From the IMG/VR virus record IMGVR_UViG_3300028536_000015, positions 1 through 64,000 of that record: DNA of 64,000 nucleotides. One strand, written 5' to 3'. This DNA comes from a virus. Below are positions 6,638 to 48,765 of the stretch, one piece after another. A program made the position numbers and the translations under genes. Every line of letters begins with the position of its first letter. The first letter of the stretch is position 1. The notes under the pieces are model-generated. The model searched no databases. It saw only the letters and a program-made list of their open reading frames with translations, and was not told the DNA's origin.

Positions 6638-6849
6638 TCGGCACCACCGCCTCCTGCCTTGCCAATCCGACCGCCACGGGCGCGCTTATCAAGGCGACCA
6701 TGGCCCTTCTTGCCATGAACCTTGCCGCCGTCCTTCTTTTCTTCAGCTTCCGATACGATCTTGTTCGGGCCGTCACCAGAGTAGTTCTTGCCACCCTTGA
6801 TGCCGCCGCTGACCTTGCCGCCGCCGGCTTTCTTATGACGATTAGCCAT
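6583..6849 (-). CDS. Lys/Gly-rich basic protein with GG motifs
   Basis: AGGAGA RBS plus ATG; KAGGGK, KDGGK and ARGGR repeats. Confidence 0.65.
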   Translation of the reverse strand: MANRHKKAGGGKVSGGIKGGKNYSGDGPNKIVSEAEEKKDGGKVHGKKGHGRLDKRARGGRIGKAGGGGADCTKSPFAPSHVSTNGDA

Positions 6850-34937: not shown

Positions 34938-35198
34938 TCATTCATCCAAAAATCTGATACTCTCATCGTCAATCACAACCGGACACACTGCGGGTTTCAA
35001 TCGGGTTTTCTTCCGCAATCGATACGCCTTCATGTAAGCCGCCCTTGCCCGCTTCCGCGATGGCTTCGGGAAACTCCCGTCCGCAAGCCGGTCCAGGAAC
35101 TCCTGGCATAGCCGCTTGATCCTGGGGACTAAGCTAGTATCCCTGAAGAACTCAGCCTCTCTCCTAATCTCTTCATTCGTCATTCTGTAACCCATCAC
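34938..35198 (-). CDS. Basic hypothetical protein, first gene of the leftward operon
   Basis: RAAYMKAYR motif. Confidence 0.5.
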   Translation of the reverse strand: MMGYRMTNEEIRREAEFFRDTSLVPRIKRLCQEFLDRLADGSFPKPSRKRARAAYMKAYRLRKKTRLKPAVCPVVIDDESIRFLDE

Positions 35199-35442
35199 TC
35201 ATGTTGCTGTAGCCAGTTACATATCGTCTGGCGCAGGTACAACAAGGGTTCAATAGAATTTTTTATAAAGAGTCGGGAGACCAAAGAAGTCTCAGACCCC
35301 GCCGGCCCTTTCCCTAGCGGCCCTGCCCCCGGCCTGGGTCCCTTTCCCATATCATACTACCTCACCCTATAGCCCTAGGGGCGCCCCAGTGCATAGGCAC
35401 ATCACACATGCAAGCCATTGATATCATTGATGTATCGCAACG

Positions 35443-35470
35443 TAGTTCCATAATAGATGTTATGCGAACT
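35443..35470 (-). other. dif-like XerC/XerD recombination site
   Basis: AGTTCGCATAA-CATCTA-TTATGGAACTA, 11-6-11 architecture. Confidence 0.8.
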
Positions 35471-35742
35471 GTGATGTGGACACGTGTGGGTGCGTGGAGA
35501 TGGGGAAGAGCGCGGACAGACTACGTATTGCCCTATCTTCCTGCTCGATAGTCTTGGATATCTTATCTGTGCCTAGGGAGGCACGAGAGAGCGGGACAAC
35601 AGGTCTTATGCATCTATTGTGCATCTCTAGCACACCCTCTGTAGGGGCTTTGCAGGGGTAGGTGTGCGGGGAAAATGTTGCGCTGGGGTCTAAGCTCGGG
35701 AGAGCGTTGCGCGCCCTGGTGCGCCTGGAGACATGCACAAAT

Positions 35743-35889
35743 GCATTGCTGCTATGCGTCAGGCAATTATACCCGGATAGCTTAGCAGCTCTGGTGACTG
35801 TGAACATTGTTCACTCATAGCTCCTATGCAATTATGCATGGATTGCTTGCACTTAGCAAGAGCTATGTTTGTTTGCATACCTGCTATGC
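35743..35889. promoter_or_regulatory. Three GCAT-N7-ATGC operator-like boxes
   Basis: At 35743-35757, 35815-35829 and 35875-35889; a perfect copy lies at 48738-48752. Confidence 0.45.
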
Positions 35890-35919
35890 GTTTGCCCCAC
35901 TAACCCAATTTGTACAAAG

Positions 35920-36450
35920 GCGTATGTACATCGGGTGAGGCGAGGGCTTGGTGCTCTCGCGGAGATACCCGATACCCTTGGATTGAGCCTCCCGCCTGAT
36001 TGGCGCGGGACACCAGCGAGGTGCAGCTAGCACCATATCGCGGCCAAGTGGCGAACTATAAGCCACAGCGCTCCAGCCCTTACGGTTTCGCACTTGCGAT
36101 AACCCTGGCGACACTAGCGACCAACAGTCCGTTAGTGACTGTGTTAGAGTAGGGGCATGTTCTACATGCTGGCGAGGGCTTTCGAGCTAGTAGCCAACCG
36201 AGGGTAGCACGGCGGGACCGAAAATCGGGTAGCACTCCATTGCGAGTGTGTGGCGCGGCCACAATACCTAAAAGTCCTCTCAAGGCAGCGCCTCTCGACC
36301 GTGGCCTATTCCTTGAGATGATACCAAGTTTTGCATTGCACTTAACATGGTCACAATGAGCTTGGAACGCAGGCTAGCGCTTGCGAAAGGTAAACAGCCG
36401 CTTCTCACGAGCCTGACGCTTTCGCCGCACTGCTGGCGCTTACAAGCTCT
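35920..36450 (+). ncRNA. Candidate large structured RNA (strand uncertain)
   Basis: No credible ORF; about ten consecutive stem-loops. Confidence 0.35.
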
Positions 36451-36603
36451 TCCCTTTTCCTCTTAGACTACCGCTAATGTTACCTAGTGGGGCTAGCTCG
36501 GAACTACATTCCAGGCTGGCCTTACTGCGAAGCATTACGCTTCAGACATGAGAAAGCAAGAAAATGCATTCTCATGCTTTTTCTTGAGAGGGAAAACTAT
36601 ACC

Positions 36604-36783
36604 ATGGTCGCAGATCAACGCAAAGGTGCGCGTGCTCGTGCTCGGAACCGTATCAACACCATGTTGGACAATATGGTTGCCGCCAGCGAAACACCGCAAA
36701 CCGCCACGTTCTCTAACGCCGCATGTTCCTCCGATATGGAGCATATGCGTTGGGCCGATGATGGCGGGCGACATCACGACTAA
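36604..36783 (+). CDS. Early hypothetical protein
   Basis: ATG at 36604 after AGAGGGAAA; ends RWADDGG. Confidence 0.6.
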   Translation: MVADQRKGARARARNRINTMLDNMVAASETPQTATFSNAACSSDMEHMRWADDGGRHHD

Positions 36784-36854
36784 TGTTTCGGCATGGGCAG
36801 GGAATTATACCTGCCCATTGCGAAGCATTATCGCTTCACAAGAGGGAAATTACC

Positions 36855-37043
36855 ATGACTGACAAAGGGATGCACACCGCAAGCGCCGGACATGGCCAGG
36901 ATTGGGGGATTGATAATCTCTCAACTGCCCATGATCACGGGCGCGTTGTTCCGCCCATCGCCTATCAGACGCCGGATGTGACTGTCTATGATATCGGTCA
37001 CGAAAACGACGACCTGATCACGTCAGGTGATACCAATGTCTGA
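36855..37043 (+). CDS. Early hypothetical protein
   Basis: ATG after the element-2 RBS. Confidence 0.55.
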   Translation: MTDKGMHTASAGHGQDWGIDNLSTAHDHGRVVPPIAYQTPDVTVYDIGHENDDLITSGDTNV

Positions 37044-37107
37044 TGAAGGTACTGCGCTTCTGGCGCTGATGATCCTCATCGCCTTTACATTCGTTGTCTT
37101 GCTCTAA
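37036..37107 (+). CDS. 23-aa single-TM peptide
   Basis: MSDEGTALLALMILIAFTFVVLL; its stop begins element 3. Confidence 0.45.
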   Translation: MSDEGTALLALMILIAFTFVVLL

Positions 37108-37168
37108 TGTTTCGGCATGCAGCATTCGTGCTGCATAGCGAAGCATTACGCTTCAAGAGGGAAAGACT

Positions 37169-37732
37169 ATGCCAACAATCGAGTTTAGCAATGCATTCGA
37201 CGCGACAAACAAGCGCGTTCTGTCCGAAGTGTTCGCTATCGTCATCAAGAAACTTGATCTCACTGAAGATTTCAAGGTCAAGGTCTCGATGGAGTTTATG
37301 GATAACAGAAGCCTTTATGCGCGGGTTGCGCGGGGAGGCGAAAAGCTGTTCCTGATGGAAATGAACAGCAACGGCTTCAACCTATTCGACGCAACTGCCG
37401 CGTTTGGACACGAGCTGATCCACGTGCAGCAGCACATCAAGGGTTGGTTGCGCGTCAAGAATACAGGCAAGGTTTGGTCCGATGGGCTCTATTGGAAGGG
37501 CGAATTCTATTCCGCTCTTCATCTGATGCTCAACGGCTCCAGCAACTGCGTTCCTTGGGAAATCGACGCTTGGAAACGCATGGGTGAGCTGCACAAATAC
37601 GTGGTCTCTCATTTGCCGCCGGCTGATGCCGCGCTGATCGATATCACCAAATCGACCGGCCTTAAAGATACTTGGAATGCAGACTATGCATCTTGGAAAG
37701 AGTGCGAAGAGATTTTTTCTCTTAAACACTAA
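37169..37732 (+). CDS. Zincin-like metallopeptidase
   Basis: GHELIHVQQ (HExxH) ... PWEIDA. Confidence 0.75.
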   Translation: MPTIEFSNAFDATNKRVLSEVFAIVIKKLDLTEDFKVKVSMEFMDNRSLYARVARGGEKLFLMEMNSNGFNLFDATAAFGHELIHVQQHIKGWLRVKNTGKVWSDGLYWKGEFYSALHLMLNGSSNCVPWEIDAWKRMGELHKYVVSHLPPADAALIDITKSTGLKDTWNADYASWKECEEIFSLKH

Positions 37733-37842
37733 ATCGCTTCTGTCCTGCCGCGTACCTAATAAGCCTTGAGGAAGGCTTCTCAGGCTTTCTCAAGTACGCG
37801 GCAGTGAGAAGCGATTAAGCTTCATGAAGAGGGAAACTTCAA

Positions 37843-38064
37843 ATGACCAAAGCAACAAGCAAGTCTTGGGATGAGGTTCATGCCGAGCGCGTGGCCTATC
37901 GGCGCGCTCACAATAACCAGCCCAATGGCTACCGGCCTGTTACGGAAGCGGAATTGCAGACGCAACGGAAAGAACTGTTTAGCGAATTGGAACCGGATAT
38001 CAATCCGGAAACCAAAATCGTGAGCATTCTCGATCCGAATTTCGGCAAGGTCAAAGCGGCTTAG
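37843..38064 (+). CDS. Early hypothetical protein
   Basis: RBS plus ATG after element 4. Confidence 0.65.
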   Translation: MTKATSKSWDEVHAERVAYRRAHNNQPNGYRPVTEAELQTQRKELFSELEPDINPETKIVSILDPNFGKVKAA

Positions 38065-38138
38065 CTTTTCGACACTGCGGAGTTTAATCTCCGCAGCACG
38101 AAGCGCTGATGCTTCAAAAGAGGGAAAGAAATTCTACC

Positions 38139-38294
38139 ATGCAAATCTTCAGTGACAGTGACGACTTGCCGATGAAGGCTGAAAAACGTGCCGAGACTTC
38201 ATTGCTCAAATCCTTGTTTTACGAGGATGTTGCAATGAGCGCCGGCTGGGTCTTCATCATCCTGTGCGTTCTCGTGATTGCGGAGTGGGGCTGA
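38139..38294 (+). CDS. Small membrane protein
   Basis: ATG at 38139; C-terminal TM. Confidence 0.55.
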   Translation: MQIFSDSDDLPMKAEKRAETSLLKSLFYEDVAMSAGWVFIILCVLVIAEWG

Positions 38295-38488
38295 TGAAAA
38301 AGATCAAAATCCCTCACCCTGTGCTCCAATGCCCAAAGGTCAGGAAGCGCCGCGTAGAAGCGGGTATTCTGATCGTTGTGTGCGTGGCGCTGGGCGCGCA
38401 TTACATCATTCCGGACTACGAAGCTGTGATGAATTTCGCAGCCAGTTTTCTGTTCTGGCTTGAACCGAAAATTGCGGTTGAAGTCTAA
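38294..38488 (+). CDS. Small membrane protein
   Basis: TGATG overlap. Confidence 0.55.
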   Translation: MKKIKIPHPVLQCPKVRKRRVEAGILIVVCVALGAHYIIPDYEAVMNFAASFLFWLEPKIAVEV

Positions 38489-38598
38489 GCGTTTCGGCAT
38501 GGGCTGGTTTATCCAGCCCATAGCGAAGCTCTTGAAGCTTTACATGAAAATGGTTGAGAAACCATCCTCATGGTTTATCAATGGAGAGGGAAATACAA

Positions 38599-38754
38599 AT
38601 GGCTAAATGTGTTAAGAGCAAGCGTAACGGCAACATCATCAGGGTTTCTGATGAGGAAGCCGCGCGGCTTGTGAAAGAAAGCGATTTCGCATATGCGCCC
38701 AAGAGCGAGTATCGGGCATATATCGCCAAGACTGCCGAGGTGACCCATGCCTGA
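38599..38754 (+). CDS. Small hypothetical protein
   Basis: IIRVSDEEA...YAPKSEY. Confidence 0.6.
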   Translation: MAKCVKSKRNGNIIRVSDEEAARLVKESDFAYAPKSEYRAYIAKTAEVTHA

Positions 38755-38914
38755 TATCAATGATATGATGGCCTGGGAAAACGGCGAAATGAATGAAGAC
38801 CGCGAGGACAAGCTGTTCCAACAGCTTGTTGATAGCGGCTTGGCTTGGACGCTCCAGGGTATGTATGGGCGTCGGGCATCGCAGCTATTGAGAGAACGGA
38901 GAATTCACCGTTAA
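38747..38914 (+). CDS. Conserved small phage protein (55 aa)
   Basis: Own translation containing FQQLVDSGLAWTLQGMYGRRA. Confidence 0.65.
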   Translation: MPDINDMMAWENGEMNEDREDKLFQQLVDSGLAWTLQGMYGRRASQLLRERRIHR

Positions 38915-38976
38915 TGTTCATGTCCTGCCGCGTAAGCGCGGTAGTGATGAGCATTTGCTCAAAGAGGGAGAGACCT

Positions 38977-39390
38977 ATGTCTAAACACAATGTGAGAATG
39001 TTGAAAATGGATATCCATGAGACGCCCAAAGCGTTCAATATCAATGGTATCACATTTTCCAAAAAACGCCTTACTGAACTGTTCCCCGGCTGTGGATGCG
39101 ACATCAAGACGTTCTATCGGCTAATGATTATCATGCCGTTCTTTGCGTCTCAAAAGAGCGTGGAAGAAGCCCCAACGGTTACAGGCAAATACGCCATCGC
39201 CAAGGCCAAACGGATTTTCGAAAACATCGGCCTGGATGACGCGTCTATTCTGCCGTTCATGCAGATTGCGGCGCAACTCGGCGAGCTTCAAATCCCGGAA
39301 TGCCTGGATGATATCACAGAACAGTGCCACGATCAGATTTGCGGCTGTGGCGCGAAGGTTTCACCGGGTACCAAAAATACCCTTCATTAA
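38977..39390 (+). CDS. Hypothetical protein
   Basis: ATG after element 7. Confidence 0.6.
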   Translation: MSKHNVRMLKMDIHETPKAFNINGITFSKKRLTELFPGCGCDIKTFYRLMIIMPFFASQKSVEEAPTVTGKYAIAKAKRIFENIGLDDASILPFMQIAAQLGELQIPECLDDITEQCHDQICGCGAKVSPGTKNTLH

Positions 39391-39398
39391 CGGAGGGT

Positions 39399-40331
39399 AT
39401 GATGGACTTAGCTAAGAGCGCGATGCTAGTAAGCGTCAATATCGTGAATGGCGGATTGCTGGGAGAACGTAAAAACGCAAAAGCAACGGCCCTGATCCAC
39501 AAGACCTATTCTATTGCTGATAAGCGTGCCAAAGCCAGCACGTTCTTGATTGACCGTAAGCATCCTAAAGTCAAAGCGGTTGTCGCAGCCTCACAACGCG
39601 TGCGCGAAGTCCTATATAAGTATACGCTATCATGGGGCGACGACAAAACGAGGCTTCTTTCGATTTCCGTGCATGAGCTTTTCAGCAAGAAAATATCCGA
39701 AGCAGAGGCTGAATTGCGGGAGGCGTGGGATGAGTATCTCCATGTTTATCCGTCGTTGGTTGCCGATAGCGAGCGCAAGGAAAGCGGCTTAGGCGGCCTG
39801 TTTGATGCGTCTCAATATCCAAGCGTCAAGAAGGCCAGAGAGCTTTTTGCTTTTAAGCTCACCTATTGGCCGGTTCCTAGCTCGGGTAACTTTGTTGCGG
39901 ACATCGCCACGGAAGCAGCGGCAAAAGCCAAAGCTGATATGGCGCTGGAGATCGAGACCCGGCTCAAGACAAGCGCGCAAGAACTTGTCAATCGAGGGCG
40001 TGAAGCCGTTGCTACCTTGATGGAGCGGCTTCAGTCTTTCAATAAAAAGGCTGACGGCAAGATTATTAAGGATAGCTTGATCAAAAACCTGGAAGAGGTT
40101 GCCCATCTGATCGAAGACATGAATATCACGGGAAATTCTGAGATTTATACCATGGCTCATAGGATCAGGCGGCTTTCTAAGGTCAGCGCCGTAGGGTATC
40201 GAATGAGCCCTCAGTTTAGGGCTAATGGACTTTCTCTCGGGGAAGCCATCCTTAAAGAACAGATCGACTTGGATACGCTCGATTTGGAAGTATCTGAAAT
40301 GGTTGCAGAAGCAGGTGAATACGAGTTTTGA
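39399..40331 (+). CDS. DUF3150-like helical protein
   Basis: YTLSWGD..RLL and YPS motifs; typical neighbour of MoxR/VWA pairs. Confidence 0.6.
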   Translation: MMDLAKSAMLVSVNIVNGGLLGERKNAKATALIHKTYSIADKRAKASTFLIDRKHPKVKAVVAASQRVREVLYKYTLSWGDDKTRLLSISVHELFSKKISEAEAELREAWDEYLHVYPSLVADSERKESGLGGLFDASQYPSVKKARELFAFKLTYWPVPSSGNFVADIATEAAAKAKADMALEIETRLKTSAQELVNRGREAVATLMERLQSFNKKADGKIIKDSLIKNLEEVAHLIEDMNITGNSEIYTMAHRIRRLSKVSAVGYRMSPQFRANGLSLGEAILKEQIDLDTLDLEVSEMVAEAGEYEF

Positions 40332-40485
40332 GTGCCTTAAAACTACCACATTATTATGGTTTACAGAAAGCTTGAACGAGAGGGAATATGGAAATCTTCT
40401 TTATGCTCTACGCCTTAGGACAGGCGATGTTACTTGTTTTGTCCACAAGACGACTAGCGAAAAACCCCCATCAGAAGGAATAGCA

Positions 40486-40665
40486 ATGCCAGCACCGTTA
40501 CCGGATGATATCACGATTGATATCAAACTTTCTGTAGCCCGCGTCGCATGTGAGTTAGCCAAAAACTATATCATAATGATGCAGGGTGATCCACGCGATA
40601 ATCCGCACGGCGATAAGGTTTTAGCGGCCGTTTTGGATCAATTGGACGAAGCGTTGAAAGAATAA
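40486..40665 (+). CDS. Hypothetical protein (start uncertain)
   Basis: AAGGA RBS; its stop begins element 8. Confidence 0.45.
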   Translation: MPAPLPDDITIDIKLSVARVACELAKNYIIMMQGDPRDNPHGDKVLAAVLDQLDEALKE

Positions 40666-40731
40666 GCTTTCATGTCCACTGGCTTACGAGCCAGTGAGAT
40701 GAGCGCTTATGCTCAAAGAGGGAGACCTTAA

Positions 40732-41769
40732 ATGCTGAAATGCAAAATTACACAGCTTGCTGACGTTGTGTATCCTTTGATCCACGCGAATATTCCCGTG
40801 ATGATCAAAGGACCTACCGGGGTCGGCAAGTCTGCGGTGATCAATACGGAGATCATGTCCCGTATCCGCACGGATTTCGGACAGGCTTCGAGGCTGCATG
40901 ATATCAGGCTTTCCACAAAAGATATTGTGGATGGCACTGGCATGCCGCTGATCGATCGCGAGAAGATGGCCACCTATTGGACGCGGCCCGCGTTTGTTCC
41001 GGAAGATGACGGCGAAATGCATGTCATGTTCCTTGACGAGTTCGGCCATGCGAATGTTCAACTCCAGCAGATGTCTTATCAGTTGGTGTTGGATCGTTCG
41101 TGCGGCGGATATCCATTGCCCAAAAAGAACCGCATTATCCTTGGCTCGAACACCAGGGAAGACGGCGGCGGCGACAACAAGATGTTGAAGCCGCTGGAAA
41201 ATCGTATGGCACATATCCAGGTGGAAGTCGATGAGATGGGCTTCATTGAGTTGATCAAGAAGTGGGGATGGGACAAGCGTCTGATTGCTTTCCTCAACCT
41301 GCGCCCTGAGTTGATCCATAAGGTGGACCCGAACCATCCGTCCTTTCCGACGCCGCGCTCTCTTGAGAACTTCAACAAAGTCCTTCAGGACCCGGCGCTG
41401 GCTCATTTGGACCCCAAGCCGCTCAAGTCTGTCCTGGAAAGCGCCGCGAGGTCTATCTTGGGCGAGGGGTTTGCGCATCAGTTCAGCACGTTCCTGGATC
41501 GTATCACCGCTGGTCTGCCCAAGATCGCAGATATCCTGGCGGACCCGACCAAGGCCAAGATGCCCGCTGATGCCCATTTCCAGTGGCTGATTGCCGGCAC
41601 CATCTCGCGCAACATGAACGCCAAGAATGCCCCGGCGTTCGCCAAGTACTTGGCTCGCATGTCGCCTGACATTGCGTCCATGTGTGTTCATGATGCAATC
41701 TCGCGGGATCGTGCTTTGGGCGATGTTGTTTCGCTCAAGGCGCTGTTGTTGGAAGGATCGGGGAAGTAA
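40732..41769 (+). CDS. MoxR-like AAA+ ATPase
   Basis: GPTGVGKS, MFLDEF, LENRM and FPTPRS. Confidence 0.85.
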   Translation: MLKCKITQLADVVYPLIHANIPVMIKGPTGVGKSAVINTEIMSRIRTDFGQASRLHDIRLSTKDIVDGTGMPLIDREKMATYWTRPAFVPEDDGEMHVMFLDEFGHANVQLQQMSYQLVLDRSCGGYPLPKKNRIILGSNTREDGGGDNKMLKPLENRMAHIQVEVDEMGFIELIKKWGWDKRLIAFLNLRPELIHKVDPNHPSFPTPRSLENFNKVLQDPALAHLDPKPLKSVLESAARSILGEGFAHQFSTFLDRITAGLPKIADILADPTKAKMPADAHFQWLIAGTISRNMNAKNAPAFAKYLARMSPDIASMCVHDAISRDRALGDVVSLKALLLEGSGK

Positions 41770-41770
41770 G

Positions 41771-42007
41771 ATGCAGGATTTATTTTATCTTCTTGCATCG
41801 ATCTTTCTAATCTTGATGATGGCGTGGATGTTTAGCCGCTCAGGATTTGACGATAGCGACAAGAGCCGTAGCGAGCGTTCTGGTTTGATGATCTTCACGG
41901 ATCACAAGACTGGTTGCCAATACGTTGGAACTATCCTTGGAGGTATTACTCCGCGCCTTACCTCGCAAGGTACTATTCTCTGTGTTTCCGAAGAGAAAAA
42001 AGATTGA
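41771..42007 (+). CDS. Small membrane protein (TDHKTGCQY family)
   Basis: N-terminal TM; RSGLMIFTDHKTGCQY..GGITPRL. Confidence 0.65.
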   Translation: MQDLFYLLASIFLILMMAWMFSRSGFDDSDKSRSERSGLMIFTDHKTGCQYVGTILGGITPRLTSQGTILCVSEEKKD

Positions 42008-42114
42008 CGTTTCCACTCATGGGCTTACGAGCCCATGCAGGAAGCGCCTAATGCTTTACATAAGAAAGCTTGAGTAAGCATTCTTATGGTTCATCAAGAA
42101 AGAGGGAGATATTA

Positions 42115-43344
42115 ATGTTTGGAATGAAACCGAATGCAATGCGGCGGATGCTTCTGGCGCGGGAGCGGATCGCGAGAAAGAACCCGTTCTTTGCATCCAT
42201 CTTGTTCGGCGCCAATATCATCGAGAGCAAAAAGCATCAGACGATTTGGAGCGATGGATTGAACATCCTTTTCAATAAAGACTATGTTGAAGAGGGGAAC
42301 AATGACAAATACATTGAGGGAGATGTCCTTCACTCCGTTCTACACTGTGCCTTGCTGCATCATCCTCGCAAGCGCTATCGCGATCCCAAGAGATGGAATG
42401 AAGCCTGCGACTATCCTGTCAACGCCGTGGTCAAGGACTACTTTCCTTTGTCCCCGGATGCCTTGACCAGCCAGAAGTATGGCGCCTTGGCACCGGAAGC
42501 TGTCTATGAACTGCTTCAGAGACAAGAAGAAAAGCAGCAAGGCAAAGGCAAGCCTCAGAAGTCCAAGGGTAAGCCTGAGAAGGGCGACAAAGGAGACGAC
42601 AGTGGGCAGGGCGAGAACGATGAGAATGATCAGGACGATGGTGAGGGGCAGGAAAAAGAACAGCCCGGCACCATGTTTGAGCCTGACCCTGAGGATCAGG
42701 AACAGGATAGCGAGGAAAACGAGCGTCAGTGGAAAAGAGTTCTCACCGGCGCGATCGAGAAATCGCCTCCTGGGACCATGCCGGGAAGTCTCCAGCGCCT
42801 GATCCTGGATATCTTTCCAAAAGACAAGATCGATTGGAAGGACCTGATCCGGGATATGTCACGGGATGCCAAATCGAAGGCTACCAGAACGTGGCATCGG
42901 CCTAATCGGCGCCGCCTTGGCAATGATGAGTATATGCCGGGCTATGGCAACGATAACGTCTACAAGCTTGTCATGTGCCTGGATGTCTCGGGTTCGGTCA
43001 GTCAGCAAATGATCCAGGAAATGTGCGATGAGGCCGCAAGCCTTCTCGATCAGGACCTGGTCACGAATGTTACGCTGATCTCCGTCGATACGCGCATTCA
43101 GAATGTCTTGGAGGCAACAACCGGCGAGGATATCAAGGGTTGGAACGCAGGGGGCGGGGGAGGAACAGACTTCCGCAGCGCCATGGATACTATCGGCAAG
43201 ATGGAGGATGTCATTGGCTGTATCTTTCTGACAGACATGGCCACGAGTTCCTTTGGTACCGAGCCCCCGTTTGGGGTAGTATGGGTCGATTGGAGCGGTG
43301 GTGGCAGCAAGGCGCCTTATGGGCGCACTGTTTCTTACCGCTGA
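42115..43344 (+). CDS. DUF2201-type metallopeptidase-like plus VWA domain protein
   Basis: HSVLH..WNEACD; acidic linker; DVSGS MIDAS, GGGGTDF and FLTD. Confidence 0.82.
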   Translation: MFGMKPNAMRRMLLARERIARKNPFFASILFGANIIESKKHQTIWSDGLNILFNKDYVEEGNNDKYIEGDVLHSVLHCALLHHPRKRYRDPKRWNEACDYPVNAVVKDYFPLSPDALTSQKYGALAPEAVYELLQRQEEKQQGKGKPQKSKGKPEKGDKGDDSGQGENDENDQDDGEGQEKEQPGTMFEPDPEDQEQDSEENERQWKRVLTGAIEKSPPGTMPGSLQRLILDIFPKDKIDWKDLIRDMSRDAKSKATRTWHRPNRRRLGNDEYMPGYGNDNVYKLVMCLDVSGSVSQQMIQEMCDEAASLLDQDLVTNVTLISVDTRIQNVLEATTGEDIKGWNAGGGGGTDFRSAMDTIGKMEDVIGCIFLTDMATSSFGTEPPFGVVWVDWSGGGSKAPYGRTVSYR

Positions 43345-43399
43345 TGCTTAAACACAGAGGCTTACAAGCCTCTGCATTAAGCACCATTAGGAGGGAAAC

Positions 43400-43696
43400 A
43401 TGAGAGATTACGTAGAACGTTCCTTGCTGATCAAGGGCCCATGGAATTTAGACGGAACAGAAGATTTGAGTCATTGGGGTAATGCCACCTTCATAAGGCA
43501 TATTACACCAAAGGGACCTGTAATAGAAATGAACCAAGGGGACCAATGGCATACCAGCATTCATAAAGTTCCGGGGCTCAATATTCCATATTGGCTATCC
43601 GGAAGACTACCTGAGGAATATAAGCAGATAAGATATTTTCCAGACGCTGATCCGTTTGATGACGTGGTATGTCTGGAGGGAGGAAATGATGCGTGA
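43400..43696 (+). CDS. Hypothetical protein, paralog of the next gene
   Basis: WNLDGTEDLSHW. Confidence 0.6.
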   Translation: MRDYVERSLLIKGPWNLDGTEDLSHWGNATFIRHITPKGPVIEMNQGDQWHTSIHKVPGLNIPYWLSGRLPEEYKQIRYFPDADPFDDVVCLEGGNDA

Positions 43697-43997
43697 TATA
43701 TTCGATGAGTATACCTGGAACCTGACAGGGCAAGAAGACCTGAACAGTTGGCGCCATCAAACTCAAAAATGGTACAAGACAAAAAGAGGGTGGTTTCTAA
43801 CCACTACGGAAGACTACGGTTCAGTAATTCAACATTGGTTCTCTACGAATTCTGATAGTGATCTTCTTCCTGTATGGAACTTATGGGATGGAGCGATACT
43901 GCCTTATGATATCCTCGATGCTGAAGCTAACTGGGATCATAGTTTCGATTTGATCGATATCGAGCTGGCTGAGATGATCATGAAGGGGGAGCTTTAG
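43686..43997 (+). CDS. Hypothetical protein, paralog of the previous gene
   Basis: WNLTGQEDLNSW. Confidence 0.6.
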   Translation: MMRDIFDEYTWNLTGQEDLNSWRHQTQKWYKTKRGWFLTTTEDYGSVIQHWFSTNSDSDLLPVWNLWDGAILPYDILDAEANWDHSFDLIDIELAEMIMKGEL

Positions 43998-44009
43998 AGG
44001 GAGGCAAGA

Positions 44010-44340
44010 GCACGGCTTGGTTATCATCATCAATCTTTACACCAAGTTTCCATAGCCGCTCCCCGCTCTCTCCCGGCTAGGTAAAGCCAGAGCAGTGGGA
44101 GCCAGCTAGCGCGTATCCCTGAGGTACCCGATATCGGGGGGTCAGCCGCCCGGCCTGCATTTGAGTTGCAGAACTGCCGTACATGCCTCAGGTACAGGCA
44201 TAGCCTTGGCGGCATTTGCCTGGGTCGGGGTTTACCCCGCGCTTCGTCCTTGGAATTCCGCCAAGCCGCCTTAGGAGATGGGATTTCGACCTGCTCAGAC
44301 GGCTAAAAGCCGGGCTGTGGGACTTTTTCGGGTTGATTAA
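44010..44340. ncRNA. Candidate structured RNA
   Basis: GC-rich, multi-hairpin, no credible ORF. Confidence 0.3.
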
Positions 44341-44408
44341 CTGTTACACTATGACTATAAGAAGCCTGTGCACAATTTCTGGATCGTCCTCAAAGTCAAT
44401 CCAGCCCG

Positions 44409-44440
44409 AAGCCGTCCTGCTCCTACAGGGCGGCTTTTGT
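44409..44440 (+). terminator. Intrinsic terminator between convergent units
   Basis: AAGCCGTCCTG-ctccta-CAGGGCGGCTT followed by TTGT. Confidence 0.6.
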
Positions 44441-44470
44441 GGTTCTGCACTAAGATGTTGCGTATGTCAA

Positions 44471-44977
44471 TTAGTTGCCAGATTTTTCATCAGTCGGTGG
44501 TATTAGAATATTCCCGTCCTCCAGCTTGACGCCCAACGTATTTTCTATCGTTTTAGCATCCATTCCCAGTTCCTTGAGTTCCCCTTTAATGTAGCTGAGC
44601 AGTTGTTCCGGCGATTGATTATCAAAATCCCCAGGACCGCCAACCTCTTTGCGATCCAAAAACATGCGGAACATCTCGCCGCCAAGAAGCTTCGCGTTAG
44701 TGGCAGCCGCCGCCATCTGGCCTAGCTTTCGGCTCAGTTCCCAATCATCGAAAACGCGCTGTAGGATTTGCGAGCGGGAGAGCTGAGCCCTCCTAGCGTT
44801 GACATCCATTAGCTCATTGACGCGCCTCCTAATGACCTTGCGGGCCATCCTGCGGGAGGCGGCCAGTGGCGGGTTACCAGAAGTTCCACCTGTCTCCAGG
44901 TAGGCATCAGCGGGTTCCTTGCCGGCGACCACCATCTGGCAGAACCGCTCGTCTTCTAGGTTTCTTAGAACTCCCAT
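44471..44977 (-). CDS. terS: Terminase small subunit (putative)
   Basis: LRNLEDERFCQMVVAGK..ADAYLETG...ASRR HTH N-terminus typical of TerS. Confidence 0.65.
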   Translation of the reverse strand: MGVLRNLEDERFCQMVVAGKEPADAYLETGGTSGNPPLAASRRMARKVIRRRVNELMDVNARRAQLSRSQILQRVFDDWELSRKLGQMAAAATNAKLLGGEMFRMFLDRKEVGGPGDFDNQSPEQLLSYIKGELKELGMDAKTIENTLGVKLEDGNILIPPTDEKSGN

Positions 44978-45006
44978 GCAAATCCTCTTAATCCTCTTGA
45001 GAGAGT

Positions 45007-45051
45007 AAAAAAGACCCCCTGAGAGTTATCCCAGAGGGTCTAAGAAAAAGC
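45007..45051 (-). terminator. Intrinsic terminator after the AAA gene
   Basis: AGACCCTCTGGGA-taac-TCTCAGGGGGTCT followed by a T run. Confidence 0.65.
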
Positions 45052-45072
45052 AACATATCGGATGGGGGAGGA

Positions 45073-46896
45073 TTAGATGCTACTTCCTTCCGACCTTTCA
45101 CGGTCGAAAGCCGTCATAAGGCCAATAACCCTTCGTAAGACTGCGGTATCGACCTTCTTGTTTTCGGACTTTGCCAACGTCTGGCTCAGCCTGATGGCGT
45201 TCTTGATCTGGCGACCATTGATGTCGAGCGGGATAAGCTGGGCAACGTCGATGCCCGTGATGCCCGCGCTCTCCAACAGGTTATTCCAGATTTTCTCTCG
45301 CTTGTCATCCGCACCCTTCGTAAAGTGCAGCGCCACCGAAATACGCGAATAGAACGCAGTGTCGATGTTCTTGACGCGGTTGGTGGTCAGGAACAAAACA
45401 CCATGATGGTATTCGAGTAGTCTGAGGAACACACCGACCATGGCATTGCGCGTGATATCGTGCTCGTCCCTGGCCTCCAGGTAAATATCCGCCTCATCGA
45501 GGAGGATCACCGCGTTCCATACCGTAGCAACGTCTAGGATGACCCGTAGGCGCTCTTCGAGCTGGTCGGGCGTCACCCCTAGCTCTCCGACCGAAATCGC
45601 ATACAGGGGCCTCTTAAGCAGTTCTGCGATGGTCTCAGCCGTCAGGGTCTTGCCTTGGCCGGGCGGACCATGCAGCAGGAAGATGCAACCGCCGCCCTTG
45701 CCCTCGATCAGGTCCGAGAAGGAACCGTCGTTGTGTTCGACCAGCGCCCGCACCAGCTTCTTCTCGTCGTCGGCCAGCACCAGCTTATCAAAACTATCTG
45801 ACCGCCATGCGATTTCCGACAATCCCTTGATCGCCATCCGGCCCCAGCGCTTGGCTCTGAAACTAAAACCATAGACATAAGGGAAGGTTCTCCAGAGATC
45901 GTTTTCCGTGGGCGTATAGGCGACAACCTTGTGAACCGCGTTATCCCCGTCACGAACGCCAGCCAAATGGGTACTTCGCATTTCGCTGGTGAACTGATCG
46001 TTATCCACGCGCTTGAACGAATGAACGTCGATCATCACGCGGCCATCTGCGCGGAACGTCTCGTTGCTCCACCAGCTAGAACGCGTGAGCTGTCCAGTGT
46101 ACGAAAGATACGTCGCACCTTTCGCGCACTTGACGTAGAGCTTGCCGTATTCCGAAAGCTTTTTCTTCACTTCCGGCGTGACTGTCTTGATGTGAAGGTC
46201 CTCGATCTTTTTGAGACCTTCGTAGGAGCCCAGCGACGCAACATATTTTCCGGGAACCAAATCACCCTGCACCGCGTGGATGATATCCATGGTGACGGCC
46301 AGAAACTGACTGCCAAACCAAGTCGATTGGACGCCGGCATTTGAAACAACCCCGGCAATGGTGTTGCCGTCGTCGTCGCTGAAGTAGACTTCCTTGCCGG
46401 TCGAAAAGTAAAACGGCAGATCGTCAAAAGCAACGGCGCCTTGGAGAACCTGACGTGCGACCGCTTCTTCGATATCCTTGATCCTGGTTTCCAGGACTTT
46501 CAGGATCATCGCGATCTCTGCCGACTGGTTTTCGATGCCAATCGGATCACCCTCGTCATCCGTGGGCCCCCAGTGATAACCATATTGGGAAAGTCCGGGA
46601 ACCCACTTGTTCTTGGTCCGAGCCAATTCACCCAACGGAAACACGCTGTTCATGCGGCTCATGCGGGCATGACCGAAAACATCCTGAAGCTGGCGAGTAA
46701 ACGCTGCGTTGAAGTGCTTATTGGGAGAACGCGAGAAGTCCAGGAACTCCTCACCAAACTTATCTCGCTCGAAAGAGAAAAAATCGGCGAGGTTATTTTT
46801 CGCGAGCAGTTCCTTGACGCCCTTGGGGGTCAGAAGCTGGTCGGTCTTGACCGCCTCGCTGAGATAAGCGGCGGCGGTGGTTTCTTTTGGTGTCAT
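45073..46896 (-). CDS. AAA+ ATPase of the family expanded in filamentous fungi
   Basis: DLIEGKGGGCIFLLHGPPGQGKTLTAE, LLDEAD and FLRLLEYHHGVLFLTTNR. Confidence 0.85.
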   Translation of the reverse strand: MTPKETTAAAYLSEAVKTDQLLTPKGVKELLAKNNLADFFSFERDKFGEEFLDFSRSPNKHFNAAFTRQLQDVFGHARMSRMNSVFPLGELARTKNKWVPGLSQYGYHWGPTDDEGDPIGIENQSAEIAMILKVLETRIKDIEEAVARQVLQGAVAFDDLPFYFSTGKEVYFSDDDGNTIAGVVSNAGVQSTWFGSQFLAVTMDIIHAVQGDLVPGKYVASLGSYEGLKKIEDLHIKTVTPEVKKKLSEYGKLYVKCAKGATYLSYTGQLTRSSWWSNETFRADGRVMIDVHSFKRVDNDQFTSEMRSTHLAGVRDGDNAVHKVVAYTPTENDLWRTFPYVYGFSFRAKRWGRMAIKGLSEIAWRSDSFDKLVLADDEKKLVRALVEHNDGSFSDLIEGKGGGCIFLLHGPPGQGKTLTAETIAELLKRPLYAISVGELGVTPDQLEERLRVILDVATVWNAVILLDEADIYLEARDEHDITRNAMVGVFLRLLEYHHGVLFLTTNRVKNIDTAFYSRISVALHFTKGADDKREKIWNNLLESAGITGIDVAQLIPLDINGRQIKNAIRLSQTLAKSENKKVDTAVLRRVIGLMTAFDRERSEGSSI

Positions 46897-46950: not shown

Positions 46951-47139
46951 TTACAAGTCCTCGAATGGATTTTTTTCCAGCCTTTCCTCGATCCGCTTAA
47001 CGATATCTCCCAATTGCTGCCATTCCCATTCGTCGGCAATATCGATGCCGGTGGATTTTTTGAACGCGCGCTCATTGTCTACGATTTCGTCTAGCGTGGC
47101 TTTCGTAGAGCGCCGTATGAAATCTTTGTAGTCCGTCAT
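46951..47139 (-). CDS. Hypothetical protein
   Basis: ATGA overlap with the helicase. Confidence 0.55.
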   Translation of the reverse strand: MTDYKDFIRRSTKATLDEIVDNERAFKKSTGIDIADEWEWQQLGDIVKRIEERLEKNPFEDL

Positions 47140-47981
47140 AGGATTTGGCCGCCTCCAACTTGTTCCCTGAAAACCCCAGTCTGCGGATCAACAAGAAAAA
47201 TGCAGTGACCGAGATGTCCTGCTTGAGGCTGTTGGCGCACCTTCGCGCTGAATACTATAGTATCTAGAGGATTGCGTTTAACGATAAGTCCATTATCGCA
47301 CTTATTGAACCAGTTCATAGAACCTTCGATATCCGCGAGTGTTACTTCGCGACCATTTGCGGCCTTTGTAGGGTGCGCAACCATAAACACCGTACATCCA
47401 GTAGTTTTAGCAAACATCTTCACGCGCATCAAGCAACGACCAATGTAATCCGTGAGAAGTTCGTCCTTTTGCTTTGCGCGTTCCAATTCATTCCAAGGAT
47501 CGATCATCACAAAATCTATTTTATCTTTCTGCCAAGATGTATAAGCCCTCTCTAAAATCCATTCGATATCACGAGGATCATCATTGTAATGTTCGTAGTT
47601 AGATGATTGCACAAAACACATCTGGCTTGCGAATTTGCTGAATTCATTTTTGCTCGCAAACAATCCTTCCATTTTTTCTACAATATTTATCTCATTCTCT
47701 GGAATATAAAGCCACGAACGTTTACCGCCATTCGCTGGATTAGTGCAGAGACGGATAAGCAGGTTATACAAGAACGTGCTCTTGCCGCTCCCGGCACTGC
47801 CAGTAACGACGACAAGTTGGGTTGGGTAGATTTTTAGAATTTTATCCATCTCATCCCAGCCTGTGGACATCGCATCCTTGAGGATGTTGGCTTGGTCAGG
47901 CAGATCGCTGAGCGCGTAATAGCCAGGGAGAGCATGGCGCGGAAACGGAACGGTAGTGCCAAACGGGATGGTCGTGTTCAT
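47136..47981 (-). CDS. SF4 (DnaB/Twinkle-like) helicase domain
   Basis: TGSAGSGKS, IDPWNEL, VAHPTK and GSMNWFNKCD. Confidence 0.85.
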   Translation of the reverse strand: MNTTIPFGTTVPFPRHALPGYYALSDLPDQANILKDAMSTGWDEMDKILKIYPTQLVVVTGSAGSGKSTFLYNLLIRLCTNPANGGKRSWLYIPENEINIVEKMEGLFASKNEFSKFASQMCFVQSSNYEHYNDDPRDIEWILERAYTSWQKDKIDFVMIDPWNELERAKQKDELLTDYIGRCLMRVKMFAKTTGCTVFMVAHPTKAANGREVTLADIEGSMNWFNKCDNGLIVKRNPLDTIVFSAKVRQQPQAGHLGHCIFLVDPQTGVFREQVGGGQIL

Positions 47982-48598
47982 GCGAGATGTTTCCTGACGT
48001 CATAGGAGGGGGGGGCAGTAGGGAGGCGGTAATCGGATGAGGGCTGGTCTTCCCAGCGCCGCTTGTTCAGCCATGTGGCCGGCAGTGGCACGTACTGGAC
48101 CTCGTCGGAGAATGTGAATTTTTTAAGGCCGGTCACAATTGTTTCGAGCGGAACTTTTTCTTTCATCGCCCTCGAAAAAGCTTTGAACGCATCGGGCTTG
48201 GCGGCCTTCCTGGGATACAGGTTCCAGAACGTTTCAAAATCTGTGGTATAATCTTTCTTACTTTCTTTCTTTCTTCCTATTACTCTCTTACTATATATAT
48301 CCTCGTTTTTTGAGAACGTTACAGAAACGCCGTTTTCATGTGTTAAATCAACACTGTTCGTCAGAATGACGCTGTTTACGGATTTCGCGTTTTCATGTGT
48401 TAAATCAATGCCATTCGTCATTCTGACGTTTGAAGCGTCATTCTGACGTTTTACGCGGTGGTAACGGCGCTGTCTTTCGCAATGCAGCATGCGACTGCGT
48501 TCCTCTTTCGCTTGCTCCTCGGCAAGACGCAAAAGTTCCATTTTCATGTCGTCGGGGGACAGTTTGGCAATACGAAATAGTTTATCCGAAATGCCCAT
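47978..48598 (-). CDS. Replication initiator protein
   Basis: FETFWNLYPRK..K ... PATWLNKRRWED; internal iterons; may start at 48625. Confidence 0.8.
   Translation of the reverse strand: MGISDKLFRIAKLSPDDMKMELLRLAEEQAKEERSRMLHCERQRRYHRVKRQNDASNVRMTNGIDLTHENAKSVNSVILTNSVDLTHENGVSVTFSKNEDIYSKRVIGRKKESKKDYTTDFETFWNLYPRKAAKPDAFKAFSRAMKEKVPLETIVTGLKKFTFSDEVQYVPLPATWLNKRRWEDQPSSDYRLPTAPPSYDVRKHLA
48250..48448. repeat. Putative origin: iterons plus AT-rich tract inside rep
   Basis: CGTTTTCATGTGTTAAATCAA at 48331 and 48388; CGTCATTCTGACG at 48416 and 48436, inverted at 48359; AT-rich 48250-48300. Confidence 0.65.
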
Positions 48599-48735: not shown

Positions 48736-48765
48736 CTGCATAGCTGCTATGCGCTGTCAATGCCA

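What the first reader, a model, noticed from the sequence alone, without database searches (positions are those of the whole stretch)
36475..43399. Array of ten covarying hairpin switches at early-gene junctions
Seen: elements at 36475, 36781, 37105, 37732, 38062, 38486, 38912, 40663, 42005 and 43342. Nine begin at the upstream stop codon. Each forms a lower stem (e.g. UAAUGUUUCG/CGAAGCAUUA), a 2-3 x 2 nt internal loop and an upper stem of 8-13 bp with variable sequence. In nine, a downstream segment can re-pair with the 3' strand and covaries with it (GAAGC..GCUUC in 1-5, GAAGC..GCUUU in 6 and 9, GAGC..GCUC in 7 and 8), just before the GAGGGA RBS. G-U pairs favour an RNA-level function. Inference: (a) RNase III-type sites as in the T7 early transcript, with refolding into a protective 5' hairpin; (b) ribosome-triggered coupling switches; or (c) attC-like recombination sites making this a cassette array of accessory genes.
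Basis: partly seen in the sequence, partly recalled or inferred. Interest (0 to 1): 0.85.

Follow-up and report, generated by a model that had tools for sequence, protein, structure and literature searches.

The report
Two-state RNA hairpins between phage genes
An uncultured 73-kb soil phage separates the genes of one operon with ten copies of a conserved RNA hairpin that can refold in a second way; it is built like the sites where RNase III cuts phage T7 early messages, and it also marks where related phages gain and lose genes.

Summary
All ten elements fold as described. They are the only matches to their covariance model in the whole 73-kb genome, and all lie on the + strand.

The same element occurs in single-strand arrays of one operon in six other IMG/VR phage contigs (52 copies aligned). 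A further 122 copies were found in metagenome contigs.

Two mutually exclusive helices are both kept by compensatory change:
- The two-tier hairpin: 95% of cells paired, 129 double changes against 36 in shuffles.
- A 5-bp helix between its 3' strand and a downstream segment: 98% paired.

G-U pairs (76, against 5 A-C mismatches) and UNCG/GNRA loops (25 of 52) point to RNA on the sense strand.

The layout matches the T7 intergenic hairpins without sequence homology. Nothing matches in Rfam.

Best reading (about 0.5): host RNase III-type processing sites whose downstream product refolds into a 5' hairpin. No cleavage has been shown.

The attC reading fails: no tyrosine recombinase and no core motif. 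Gene gain and loss between relatives does cluster at the elements. Earlier notes of this scan describe similar arrays in other phages.

The parts
36475..36543 (+). Element e1, in the operon leader. It starts at a TAA that closes no real gene. It has a degenerate lower stem, a 14-bp upper stem, the 3' strand X', and the X'' segment GCTTC at 36539-36543. An extra hairpin module follows before the SD at 36587 and the ATG at 36604.
   Evidence: Fold (z -7.28); model hit 34.6 bits; open frame without a start codon.
36781..36837 (+). Element e2. It runs from the stop codon of gene 36604-36783 to X'' (36833-36837). SD at 36841, ATG at 36855.
   Evidence: z -7.02; 52.2 bits.
37105..37154 (+). Element e3. 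It runs from the stop codon of the 23-codon ORF 37036-37107 to X'' (37150-37154). SD at 37156, ATG at 37169. Terminal loop UUCG.
   Evidence: z -3.31; 56.7 bits.
37730..37823 (+). Element e4. It runs from the stop codon of gene 37169-37732 to X'' (37819-37823). It has a long branched upper stem, and its lower stem carries compensatory changes (AUCGCUUCU/AGAAGCGAU).
   Evidence: z -6.82; 46.3 bits.
38062..38115 (+). Element e5. It runs from the stop codon of gene 37843-38064 to X'' (38111-38115).
   Evidence: z -3.65; 58.9 bits.
38486..38541 (+). Element e6. It runs from the stop codon of gene 38294-38488 to X'' GCTTT (38537-38541). An extra hairpin module follows before the SD at 38585.
   Evidence: 52.2 bits. 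The module is absent from contigs of runs X5 and X7 (joint 38503->38585).
38912..38960 (+). Element e7. It runs from the stop codon of gene 38747-38914 to X'' GCTC (38957-38960). Terminal loop GUAA (read from the sequence; RNAfold drew UAAG).
   Evidence: z -4.09; 53.3 bits.
40663..40714 (+). Element e8. It runs from the stop codon of gene 40486-40665 to X'' GCTC (40711-40714). It precedes the MoxR-like ATPase gene 40732-41769.
   Evidence: z -5.08; 58.5 bits.
42005..42057 (+). Element e9. It runs from the stop codon of gene 41771-42007 to X'' GCTTT (42053-42057). An extra hairpin module follows. It precedes the DUF2201/VWA gene 42115-43344.
   Evidence: 60 bits. Joints 41756->42005 and 42056->42113.
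43342..43383 (+). Element e10, the last of the array. It starts at the stop codon of gene 42115-43344. It has the two-tier hairpin only, with no X'' segment. The SD GGAGGGA follows, then the ATG at 43400.
   Evidence: z -5.05; 48 bits.

Best explanation
The elements are cis-acting RNA signals in one polycistronic message of the phage. Each is a roughly two-turn double helix: a lower stem that holds the upstream stop codon, an internal loop that never pairs, and a variable upper stem.

The most likely mechanism is cutting by the host's double-strand-specific endoribonuclease (RNase III) at or near the internal loop, as at the intercistronic sites of the T7 early transcript.

Inferred steps, none observed:
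1. The long hairpin forms first and dominates the uncut RNA.
2. Cleavage separates the cistrons. A cut on the 3' side only would leave the upstream message capped by the upper hairpin.
3. The freed 3' strand (X', GAAGC or GAGC) pairs with the segment X'' (GCUUC or GCUC) 6-9 nt downstream.
4. The downstream message then begins, within 1-3 nt of its new end, with a small hairpin of median -6.4 kcal/mol. This hairpin sits just upstream of a free Shine-Dalgarno sequence.
5. That hairpin should protect a monophosphorylated 5' end and slightly raise ribosome access.

As a by-product, the repeated 11-18-nt identical cores act as recombination points. Whole 'element plus gene' units are gained, lost and swapped there among related phages.
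For: Structure is selected.
- On 52 elements from 7 phage records, the hairpin has 95.1% of 569 cells paired. There are 129 double-change cells against 35.7 in shuffles (0 of 500 shuffles reach it). Slid controls pair at 34-46%.
- On 113 distinct metagenome copies, 94.2% of cells are paired, with 242 double changes against 66.9.

The alternative helix X':X'' is selected too.
- 98.4% of 243 cells are paired, with 21 double changes against 4.0. Slid controls pair at 28-45%.
- In the metagenome set, 99.6% of 557 cells are paired, with 26 double changes against 2.4.

The structure acts as RNA on the sense strand.
- There are 76 G-U pairs against 5 A-C 1x1 mismatches, and 25 of 52 terminal loops are UNCG or GNRA.
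- U10-G117 is a wobble pair in 46 of 52 elements.
- All 10 window copies are on the + strand. All 39 copies in five relatives' whole records lie on one strand within one 5.3-8.0-kb stretch per record.

The geometry fits an RNase III substrate.
- The median is 18 bp (range 15-32).
- The internal loop is unpaired in every copy.
- The five T7 intergenic hairpins, folded the same way, share the layout: a lower stem of up to about 9 bp (overlapping the stop codon in the 0.4/0.5 junction), an internal loop, an upper stem of 9-13 bp, then the SD.

The switch is thermodynamically plausible.
- P(alternative pair) has median 0.01 in full-length RNA and 0.99 when the 5' strand is cut away.
- Mean SD unpaired probability rises from 0.42 to 0.57. 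It rises in 30 of 47 elements and falls in 4.
- X'' keeps a fixed distance from X', but its distance to the SD varies from 1 to 12 nt, and is about 40 nt in e1, e6 and e9. This fits a 5'-end hairpin better than an SD switch.

There is a precedent. RNase III cleavage in the S. aureus cspA 5'UTR leaves a shorter 5' stem-loop that stabilises the mRNA and raises its translation (PMC3386247, abstract and passages).

The elements are not terminators or promoters. None of the ten is listed in the consensus scan.
Against: - No RNA end, cleavage or expression datum exists for this phage or any relative. The enzyme is inferred from shape alone.
- The internal loop is much smaller here (2-3 x 2 nt) than in the T7 hairpins (about 2-5 nt a side in four of five junctions; 1x1 in the 1.2/1.3 junction).
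- The covariance model finds none of the T7 sites; the best hit is 10 bits at E 0.2, elsewhere in the region. The likeness is therefore analogy, not homology.
- Whether the cut would be single or double is unknown. Even for T7 R1.1 it is reported inconsistently (PMC6993053, passages).
- The conserved lower-stem sequence and the fixed U-G wobble are not required by RNase III. They could mark a sequence-specific protein instead.
- A terminating ribosome would free X' just as well as a cut would. The alternative helix therefore does not discriminate between this model and the coupling model.
- The rise in SD accessibility is modest. The elements are related to each other, so the test overstates independence.
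- The host is unknown.
Confidence: 0.5

Rival explanations
1. Translation-termination sensor. A ribosome reaching the stop codon at the base of the hairpin unwinds exactly the lower stem. X' then pairs with X'', and this transient state promotes initiation on the next cistron or delays re-formation of the long hairpin. No cleavage is involved.
For: - 46 of 52 elements carry TAA, TGA or TAG at the first paired positions.
- The 5' strand measures 10-12 nt from the stop codon in 51 of 52 elements. This is about the length of mRNA a ribosome holds downstream of its A site (recalled knowledge).
- With the 5' strand blocked, P(alternative pair) has median 0.99, and mean SD unpaired probability rises from 0.42 to 0.55.
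Against: - The SD is not consistently masked in the ground state. The mean probability of SD pairing with X'' is 0.19 (range 0-0.67) in 41 elements.
- The distance from X'' to the SD is variable, and optional hairpin modules are inserted there.
- e1 has the full element but no translated gene upstream.
- A hairpin at the stop codon is also seen at the T7 0.4/0.5 junction, where RNase III cuts by recalled knowledge.
Confidence: 0.2
2. Uncleaved intercistronic structure, or a protein operator. The hairpins might act as barriers to exonucleases, RNase E scanning or Rho (REP-like stabilisers). Alternatively they might bind a phage or host protein that recognises the conserved lower stem and mismatched loop.
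For: - The lower-stem sequence is far more conserved than RNase III would need. G9-C118 occurs in 47 of 52 elements, U10-G117 in 46 of 52, and U11-A116 in 52 of 52.
- Upper stems vary freely.
- The stable hairpins (median -24.5 kcal/mol) would block 3' exonucleases in any case.
Against: - This does not explain why a second, mutually exclusive helix is kept by covariation.
- No candidate RNA-binding gene is shared. Only three array genes are common to all relatives examined: a 309-aa protein, a MoxR-like ATPase and a DUF2201/VWA protein.
- No arrays were found in bacterial genomes. 24 single pattern hits gave one weak model hit (21.8 bits, E 0.0011, L029) and no array.
Confidence: 0.15
3. attC-like single-stranded DNA recombination sites of a phage gene-cassette (integron-like) system.
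For: - The hairpin with an unpaired central region recalls attC.
- Genes between the elements turn over rapidly. 10 of 18 window array genes have no homologue in the closest relative.
- Joints in metagenome contigs cluster at the elements.
Against: - There is no Phage_integrase-family gene in this record or in five relatives' records, two of them complete. The control search rang in 14 of 14 genomes.
- None of the 75 GTTRRRY matches in the window lies in an element.
- G-U against A-C asymmetry, RNA tetraloops, and fixed placement between the stop codon and the SD point to RNA.
- The phage carries a YqaJ exonuclease and an ERF annealase. These can explain exchange at short repeats without a site-specific enzyme.
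Confidence: 0.03

Closest known systems
RNase III processing signals between the early genes of coliphage T7 (R0.3, R0.5, R1, R1.1, R1.3; names and cleavage recalled, not annotated in the record fetched)
   Same: - Position: intercistronic, on the sense strand of a polycistronic message.
- Shape: two coaxial helices of about two turns split by an internal loop.
- Placement: the lower stem can include the upstream stop codon, and the SD follows within about 10-15 nt.
- Copy number: several copies per operon.
   Different: - There is no sequence or model similarity.
- The internal loop is 2-3 x 2 nt here, against about 2-5 nt a side in four of the five T7 hairpins (1x1 in the fifth).
- A third segment forms a covarying alternative helix with the 3' strand. 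I found no such feature described for T7 in searches.
- Cleavage is untested here.
PeSL mobile regulatory cassettes of T4-type phages (PMC2839356, abstract and section 13 read; PMC4122927, listing only)
   Same: - Both are repeated composite motifs running from the stop codon of one small gene to the SD and start codon of the next.
- Both are concentrated among accessory genes of unknown function.
- Both coincide with insertion, deletion and replacement differences between related phages.
   Different: - PeSLs contain a sigma-70 promoter and a terminator-like stem-loop and act at the DNA and transcription level.
- These elements have no promoter-like or terminator-like match.
- These elements have a two-tier hairpin plus an alternative helix maintained at the RNA level.
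RNase III-processed 5'UTR of Staphylococcus aureus cspA mRNA (PMC3386247, abstract and passages)
   Same: A long hairpin is cut, and the shorter message then starts with a smaller stem-loop. That message is more stable and better translated. This is the two-state logic proposed here.
   Different: The cspA case is a single chromosomal leader, not a repeated intercistronic array. It has been demonstrated experimentally, whereas the reading here is inferred.
Integron attC sites
   Same: Both are imperfect hairpins with an unpaired central part that bound promoterless, co-oriented gene cassettes.
   Different: Here there is no integrase, no R-box core, and the structural signals are those of RNA on the sense strand.

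Membership tests
T7-type RNase III processing signal | About two turns of double helix in two coaxial stems separated by an internal loop | tested here: met
   Median 18 bp (range 15-32) in 52 copies. The loop is unpaired in all copies. The pairs are kept by covariation. T7 comparators were folded.
T7-type RNase III processing signal | Lies between cistrons on the transcribed strand of a polycistronic unit | tested here: met
   Nine of ten copies run from a stop codon to the next SD. All copies lie on one strand of one stretch in 6 of 6 whole records.
T7-type RNase III processing signal | Cut by RNase III in vivo or in vitro | not testable with these tools
   No RNA run holds the phage. This needs end mapping or an enzyme assay.
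T7-type RNase III processing signal | Homology to the T7 sites | tested here: not met
   Model R1 gives no hit on the five T7 intergenic hairpins. The best score is 10 bits at E 0.2, elsewhere in the region.
Any Rfam family | Score at or above a family's gathering threshold | tested here: not met
   0 matches at gathering thresholds in the 64-kb window. At E up to 1 there were only five chance-level hits, four to microRNA-precursor models and one to a viral pseudoknot model, all far below their thresholds.
PeSL regulatory cassette | Sigma-70-type promoter inside the motif | tested here: not met
   None of the 15 promoter-like matches in 35000-45200 lies in a junction. Only about 30 nt separate the hairpin from the ATG.
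PeSL regulatory cassette | Coincides with gene insertion, deletion or replacement between related phages | tested here: met
   - 10 of 18 array genes have no homologue in the nearest relative, while the elements persist.
- Homology blocks of L006 against L007 start or end at elements.
- 20 of 30 ends of the 15 listed joints lie within 10 nt of a junction, and junctions make up 13% of the stretch (counted by hand).
Integron attC site | Linked tyrosine recombinase (integron integrase) | tested here: not met
   PF00589 is absent from the own record and from 5 relatives' records. The control search rang in 14 of 14 genomes.
Integron attC site | Conserved R''/R' core (GTTRRRY; motif recalled) | tested here: not met
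   75 matches in the window, fewer than the shuffled mean of 91. None lies in an element.
Intrinsic terminator | GC-rich hairpin followed by a U tract | tested here: not met
   None of the ten is among the 20 terminator-like sites. The hairpin is followed by X'' and an A-rich spacer.
REP/BIME-type host repeats | Dispersed in bacterial chromosomes | tested here: not met
   The pattern scan of 185,579 genomes gave 24 single hits. The model gave one weak hit among them (21.8 bits, E 0.0011, L029) and no array.

The most novel reading that the evidence does not exclude
The element is a true two-state RNA device rather than a passive cutting site. The long hairpin and the X':X'' hairpin would be alternately populated in response to an event at the stop codon: arrival of a terminating ribosome, or a cut. 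Each cistron's stability and translation would then be set by what happened to the cistron before it. The same module would also be the portable joint by which these phages exchange accessory genes. On this reading it is a combined 'RNA punctuation and gene cassette' system, widespread in soil phages and absent from RNA family catalogues.
Probability: 0.2. Interest if true: 0.75.

Novelty: new variant of a known kind. Interest (0 to 1): 0.5.

Why it matters
Intercistronic RNase III sites are textbook for T7 but are hardly charted outside a few model phages.

This family now has more than 170 copies (52 in viral contigs, 122 in metagenome contigs). Covariation supports two mutually exclusive helices, so it could be turned into an RNA family and tested directly.

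If the refolding step is real, it shows how a phage gives every processed message a protective 5' hairpin from one compact module. Such a module could also be borrowed as an insulator for synthetic operons.

The link between the elements and gene gain and loss gives a second, independent example of the PeSL principle: repeated regulatory joints drive modular shuffling of accessory genes. Here it occurs in an unrelated phage group and with an RNA-level element.

Tried and rejected
Searches and checks that found nothing:
- Known RNA family: Rfam at gathering thresholds gave 0 hits. At E up to 1 there were only chance-level hits.
- Close relatives among isolated phages: blastn of the 7.1-kb stretch gave no match.
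  - The ATPase is about 30% identical to those of N4-like phages.
  - The large terminase is nearest to Roseobacter, Paracoccus and Rhizobium phages at 30-46%.
  - The host is therefore only guessed to be an alphaproteobacterium.
- Phage-encoded enzymes: no T7-like RNA polymerase domain was found. The control genomes did not ring either, so this blank is weak. No RNase III domain was found, and that control rang in 8 genomes. No tyrosine recombinase was found.
- Promoter or terminator reading: rejected.
- SD masking by X'': tested and found weak and inconsistent (mean 0.19).
- Stop-codon pairing (columns 3-5 with 121-123): 82% paired but with no significant covariation. 57 of 500 shuffles reach the score and 47 of 500 reach the percentage paired.
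- MAFFT with RNAalifold on the ten alone recovered only 9 pairs, because the internal loops differ in length. A hand-set structure and model-based realignment were used instead. That alignment is fitted to the structure, so it leans towards it.
- Bacterial genomes: 24 single pattern hits, with one weak model hit and no array.
- RNA evidence: no RNA holder was listed among the sequencing runs.

Caveats on the DNA contigs laid:
- They were laid at 85% likeness, and many joints have short sides (23-42 nt).
- The elements are themselves repeats, so some joints may be artefacts.
- Only 15 of 52 joints were shown.

Rows dropped before counts:
- of 52 elements, one had no SD match and four had no start codon found, leaving 47.
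- 41 of 52 were used. Elements lacking X'', with more than 15 nt to the SD, or with no start codon found were left out. The three window elements with the extra module are among them.
- Alignment A3 leaves out three weaker L003 copies (at 6690, 9926 and 11056), which scored E 4.5e-4 to 0.06.
- The metagenome set was found with a pattern that demands one GAAGCAWT...GCTTCA...AGAGGGA copy per contig. That copy is biased in each contig; the other copies are not.

The PeSL reporter data in the supplement of PMC2839356 were not seen.

Full report
WHAT IS THERE

The window is bases 1-64000 of a 73,364-bp IMG/VR virus record estimated 98% complete. Between 36475 and 43400, one run of + strand genes is flanked by minus-strand genes.

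Each junction folds as a two-tier hairpin. MFE is -23.4 to -53.7 kcal/mol and z is -3.3 to -7.3 against dinucleotide shuffles. Each has:
- a lower stem of about 10 bp;
- an internal loop of 2-3 nt on the 5' side and 2 nt on the 3' side;
- an upper stem of 8-14 bp with free sequence.

In e2-e10 the first paired bases are the stop codon of the upstream ORF. For e3 that ORF is a 23-codon hydrophobic peptide. e1 has no gene before it, so it sits in the leader, downstream of a 1.1-kb non-coding stretch.

After the hairpin comes a short segment, here called X''. It is GCTTC, GCTTT or GCTC in e1-e9 and absent in e10. The ribosome-binding site AGAGGGA follows. In e1, e6 and e9 an additional 38-45-nt hairpin is inserted between X'' and the ribosome-binding site.

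AGAGGGAAA is not part of the element. It is also the ribosome-binding site at the head of other operons of this phage.

IS IT MORE THAN CHANCE?

I built a covariance model from the ten, with a hand-set structure of 11 pairs. With filters off, it scores them at 34.6-60 bits. Nothing else in the whole genome has E below 1, apart from weak mirror images on the opposite strand at 19 bits or less.

RELATIVES

- A protein search with the ATPase found one related 73.7-kb contig at 81% amino-acid identity.
- Two pattern scans of IMG/VR found more contigs.
- The model finds arrays in six of these contigs.
- In the five whose whole records were searched, all 39 hits lie on one strand within a single 5.3-8.0-kb stretch per record.
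- 52 copies at E of 1e-4 or better were aligned to the model as A3.
Its first 80 loci yielded another 122 copies, 113 of them distinct, aligned as A4.
- A scan of 185,579 bacterial and archaeal genomes gave only 24 single pattern hits. The model gave one weak hit among them and no array.

The element therefore appears specific to a group of mostly soil-derived phages. Large-terminase similarity suggests alphaproteobacterial hosts, but does not show it.

TWO HELICES, BOTH SELECTED

The main hairpin:
- On A3, 95.1% of 569 cells are paired. There are 129 cells with changes on both sides against 35.7 expected from shuffling, and 0 of 500 shuffles reach this. Pairing falls to 34-46% when partners are slid.
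- A4 gives 94.2% paired, with 242 double changes against 66.9.

The alternative helix. The 3' strand of the lower stem (X', GAAGC or GAGC) can instead pair with X''.
- This 5-bp helix is paired in 98.4% of 243 cells on A3. There are 21 double changes against 4.0, and slid controls pair at 28-45%.
- On A4 it is paired in 99.6% of 557 cells, with 26 double changes against 2.4.

The same two X' positions covary with both partners:
- with the 5' strand: G-C, U-A, A-U and C-G at columns 14/113, and C-G, A-U and U-A at columns 13/114;
- with X'': G-C, U-A and A-U at columns 114/131, and A-U and G-C at columns 115/130.

This is a three-way covariation. X and X'' differ systematically. X pairs through a U-G wobble in 46 of 52 copies (108 of 113 on A4), where X'' has a C-G pair. 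X'' is therefore not a stray copy of X.

Both alignments were fitted to the model and lean towards the main structure. The alternative helix was not in the model.

RNA, NOT DNA

- In the 52 hairpins there are 76 G-U pairs but only 5 A-C single mismatches. On the complementary strand those G-U pairs would not pair.
- 25 of 52 terminal loops are UNCG or GNRA tetraloops.
- Strand bias is absolute.
- Placement is tied to the stop codon and the ribosome-binding site.

COMPARISON WITH T7

I folded the five intergenic regions of the T7 early operon in the same way. That these are the RNase III sites R0.3, R0.5, R1, R1.1 and R1.3 is recalled knowledge; the record I fetched does not annotate them.

They show the same plan:
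- a lower stem of up to about 9 bp, which overlaps the stop codon in the 0.4/0.5 junction;
- an internal loop;
- an upper stem of 9-13 bp;
- an SD about 10-15 nt further on.

There are two differences. The T7 loops are larger in four of the five hairpins. There is also no sequence relationship: model R1 finds none of the T7 sites. Rfam has no family for the element.

HOW IT MOST LIKELY WORKS

The long hairpin (median -24.5 kcal/mol) dominates the intact RNA. The predicted probability of the key X':X'' pair has a median of 0.01.

If the RNA is cut at the 3' side of the internal loop, or if the 5' strand is held unpaired, that probability has a median of 0.99. The new hairpin has a median of -6.4 kcal/mol. 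It would start 1-3 nt from the new 5' end.

The predicted unpaired fraction of the SD rises from 0.42 to 0.57 after a cut, and to 0.55 when the 5' strand is blocked. It rises in 30 of 47 elements and falls in 4. SD pairing with X'' is weak and inconsistent, at mean 0.19.

X'' keeps its distance from X', but its distance to the SD varies. Optional hairpins are inserted between them. This fits a role at the 5' end better than a role at the ribosome-binding site.

I therefore favour the processing model, at about 0.5. Host RNase III would cut at the loop. The upstream message would keep a 3' hairpin if the cut is single. The downstream message would refold into a protective 5' hairpin. The logic has a demonstrated precedent in S. 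aureus cspA (PMC3386247). The stabilising effect of single cuts is summarised in PMC6993053. Every step after 'the hairpin exists' is inference.

THE MAIN RIVAL

The main rival (about 0.2) is a termination-coupled switch. The 5' strand measures 10-12 nt from the stop codon in 51 of 52 copies. A terminating ribosome would therefore melt just the lower stem. The lack of SD masking argues against it. So does e1, which has the full element without an upstream gene.

OTHER READINGS

- A passive barrier or a protein operator (about 0.15) would explain the strongly conserved lower-stem sequence, but not the second helix.
- The attC reading is rejected. No tyrosine recombinase was found in six records. 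There is no core motif. The signals are at the RNA level.

GENE FLUX

The elements persist while the genes between them turn over.
- Of 18 genes in the window's array, 8 have a detectable homologue in the nearest relative. Only three are shared by all five relatives whose loci cover the region: a 309-aa protein, a MoxR-like ATPase and a DUF2201/VWA protein.
- Between two closer relatives (ATPase 91% identical), collinear homology blocks begin or end in or next to elements. The differences are 'element plus gene' units.
- Contigs from four soil metagenome runs of three other studies were laid on 36000-44500. 13 of the 15 listed joints have an end within 10 nt of a junction, which is 20 of 30 ends. 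Junctions make up 13% of the stretch.
  - Gene 41771-42007 is absent, with a breakpoint exactly at the start of e9, in three runs.
  - The extra hairpin modules of e1, e6 and e9 are absent.
  - One contig joins X' of e2 to the tail of e3 (counted by hand, with the caveats given under Tried and rejected).

The phage encodes a YqaJ exonuclease and an ERF annealase. Exchange at the 11-18-nt identical cores is therefore plausible without a site-specific enzyme.

This parallels the PeSL cassettes of T4-type phages (PMC2839356). Those differ from the present element in containing a promoter and a terminator. Because junctions are also gene boundaries, selection alone could place surviving breakpoints there. 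The association is real, but its cause is not shown.

NOVELTY AND STANDING

- The kind, intercistronic processing hairpins in phage operons, is known.
- This family is uncatalogued and widespread.
- Its distinguishing feature is a second helix supported by covariation. I found no description of this for phage RNase III sites in searches. Those searches cover open-access text only.
- Earlier notes of this scan report comparable hairpin arrays in other phages, including one described as two-state. I did not check those.

I rate the finding as a solid, moderately interesting new variant of a known kind, at interest 0.5.

Noticed in passing
window 36546-36586, 38545-38584, 42060-42100: There are optional extra hairpin modules between X'' and the ribosome-binding site in e1, e6 and e9. 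Those of e6 and e9 are 75% identical over 77 nt (family D1). Metagenome contigs carry the same junctions without the module (joints 36548->36587, 38503->38585, 42056->42113). In e1 the module is followed by a U-rich run.
   Followed up: partly
window 35400-36475: This is a 1.1-kb stretch without a credible ORF, lying between the divergent gene blocks at the head of the array. Another first-reader note proposes a large structured RNA here. I did not examine it.
   Followed up: no
window 35742-35758, 35874-35890, 48737-48753: There are three copies of a 17-nt word (TGCATnnCTGCTATGCG, 88-94% alike) in non-coding DNA at the heads of two gene blocks (family D7). They could be promoters or operator sites.
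   Followed up: no
window 48331-48428: There are two 41-nt direct repeats, 83% alike and 57 nt apart, next to a DnaB-like helicase gene (47136-47981, minus strand). They could be iterons of an origin.
   Followed up: no
window 52921-54523: A YqaJ-like exonuclease and an ERF-family annealase lie side by side. Together they form a phage recombination system that could use the short repeats.
   Followed up: partly
window 37036-37107, 38139-38294, 40388-40483, 41771-42007: Several very small ORFs in the array (23-78 codons) encode hydrophobic, membrane-like peptides. None has a homologue in the five relatives, except 40388, which has one in L003.
   Followed up: partly
window 17697, 51379, 55997 (+); 46908, 34905, 31694, 31146 (-): The unusually long ribosome-binding word AGAGGGAA also stands before the first genes of other operons. 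It is therefore a phage-wide signal and not part of the element.
   Followed up: yes
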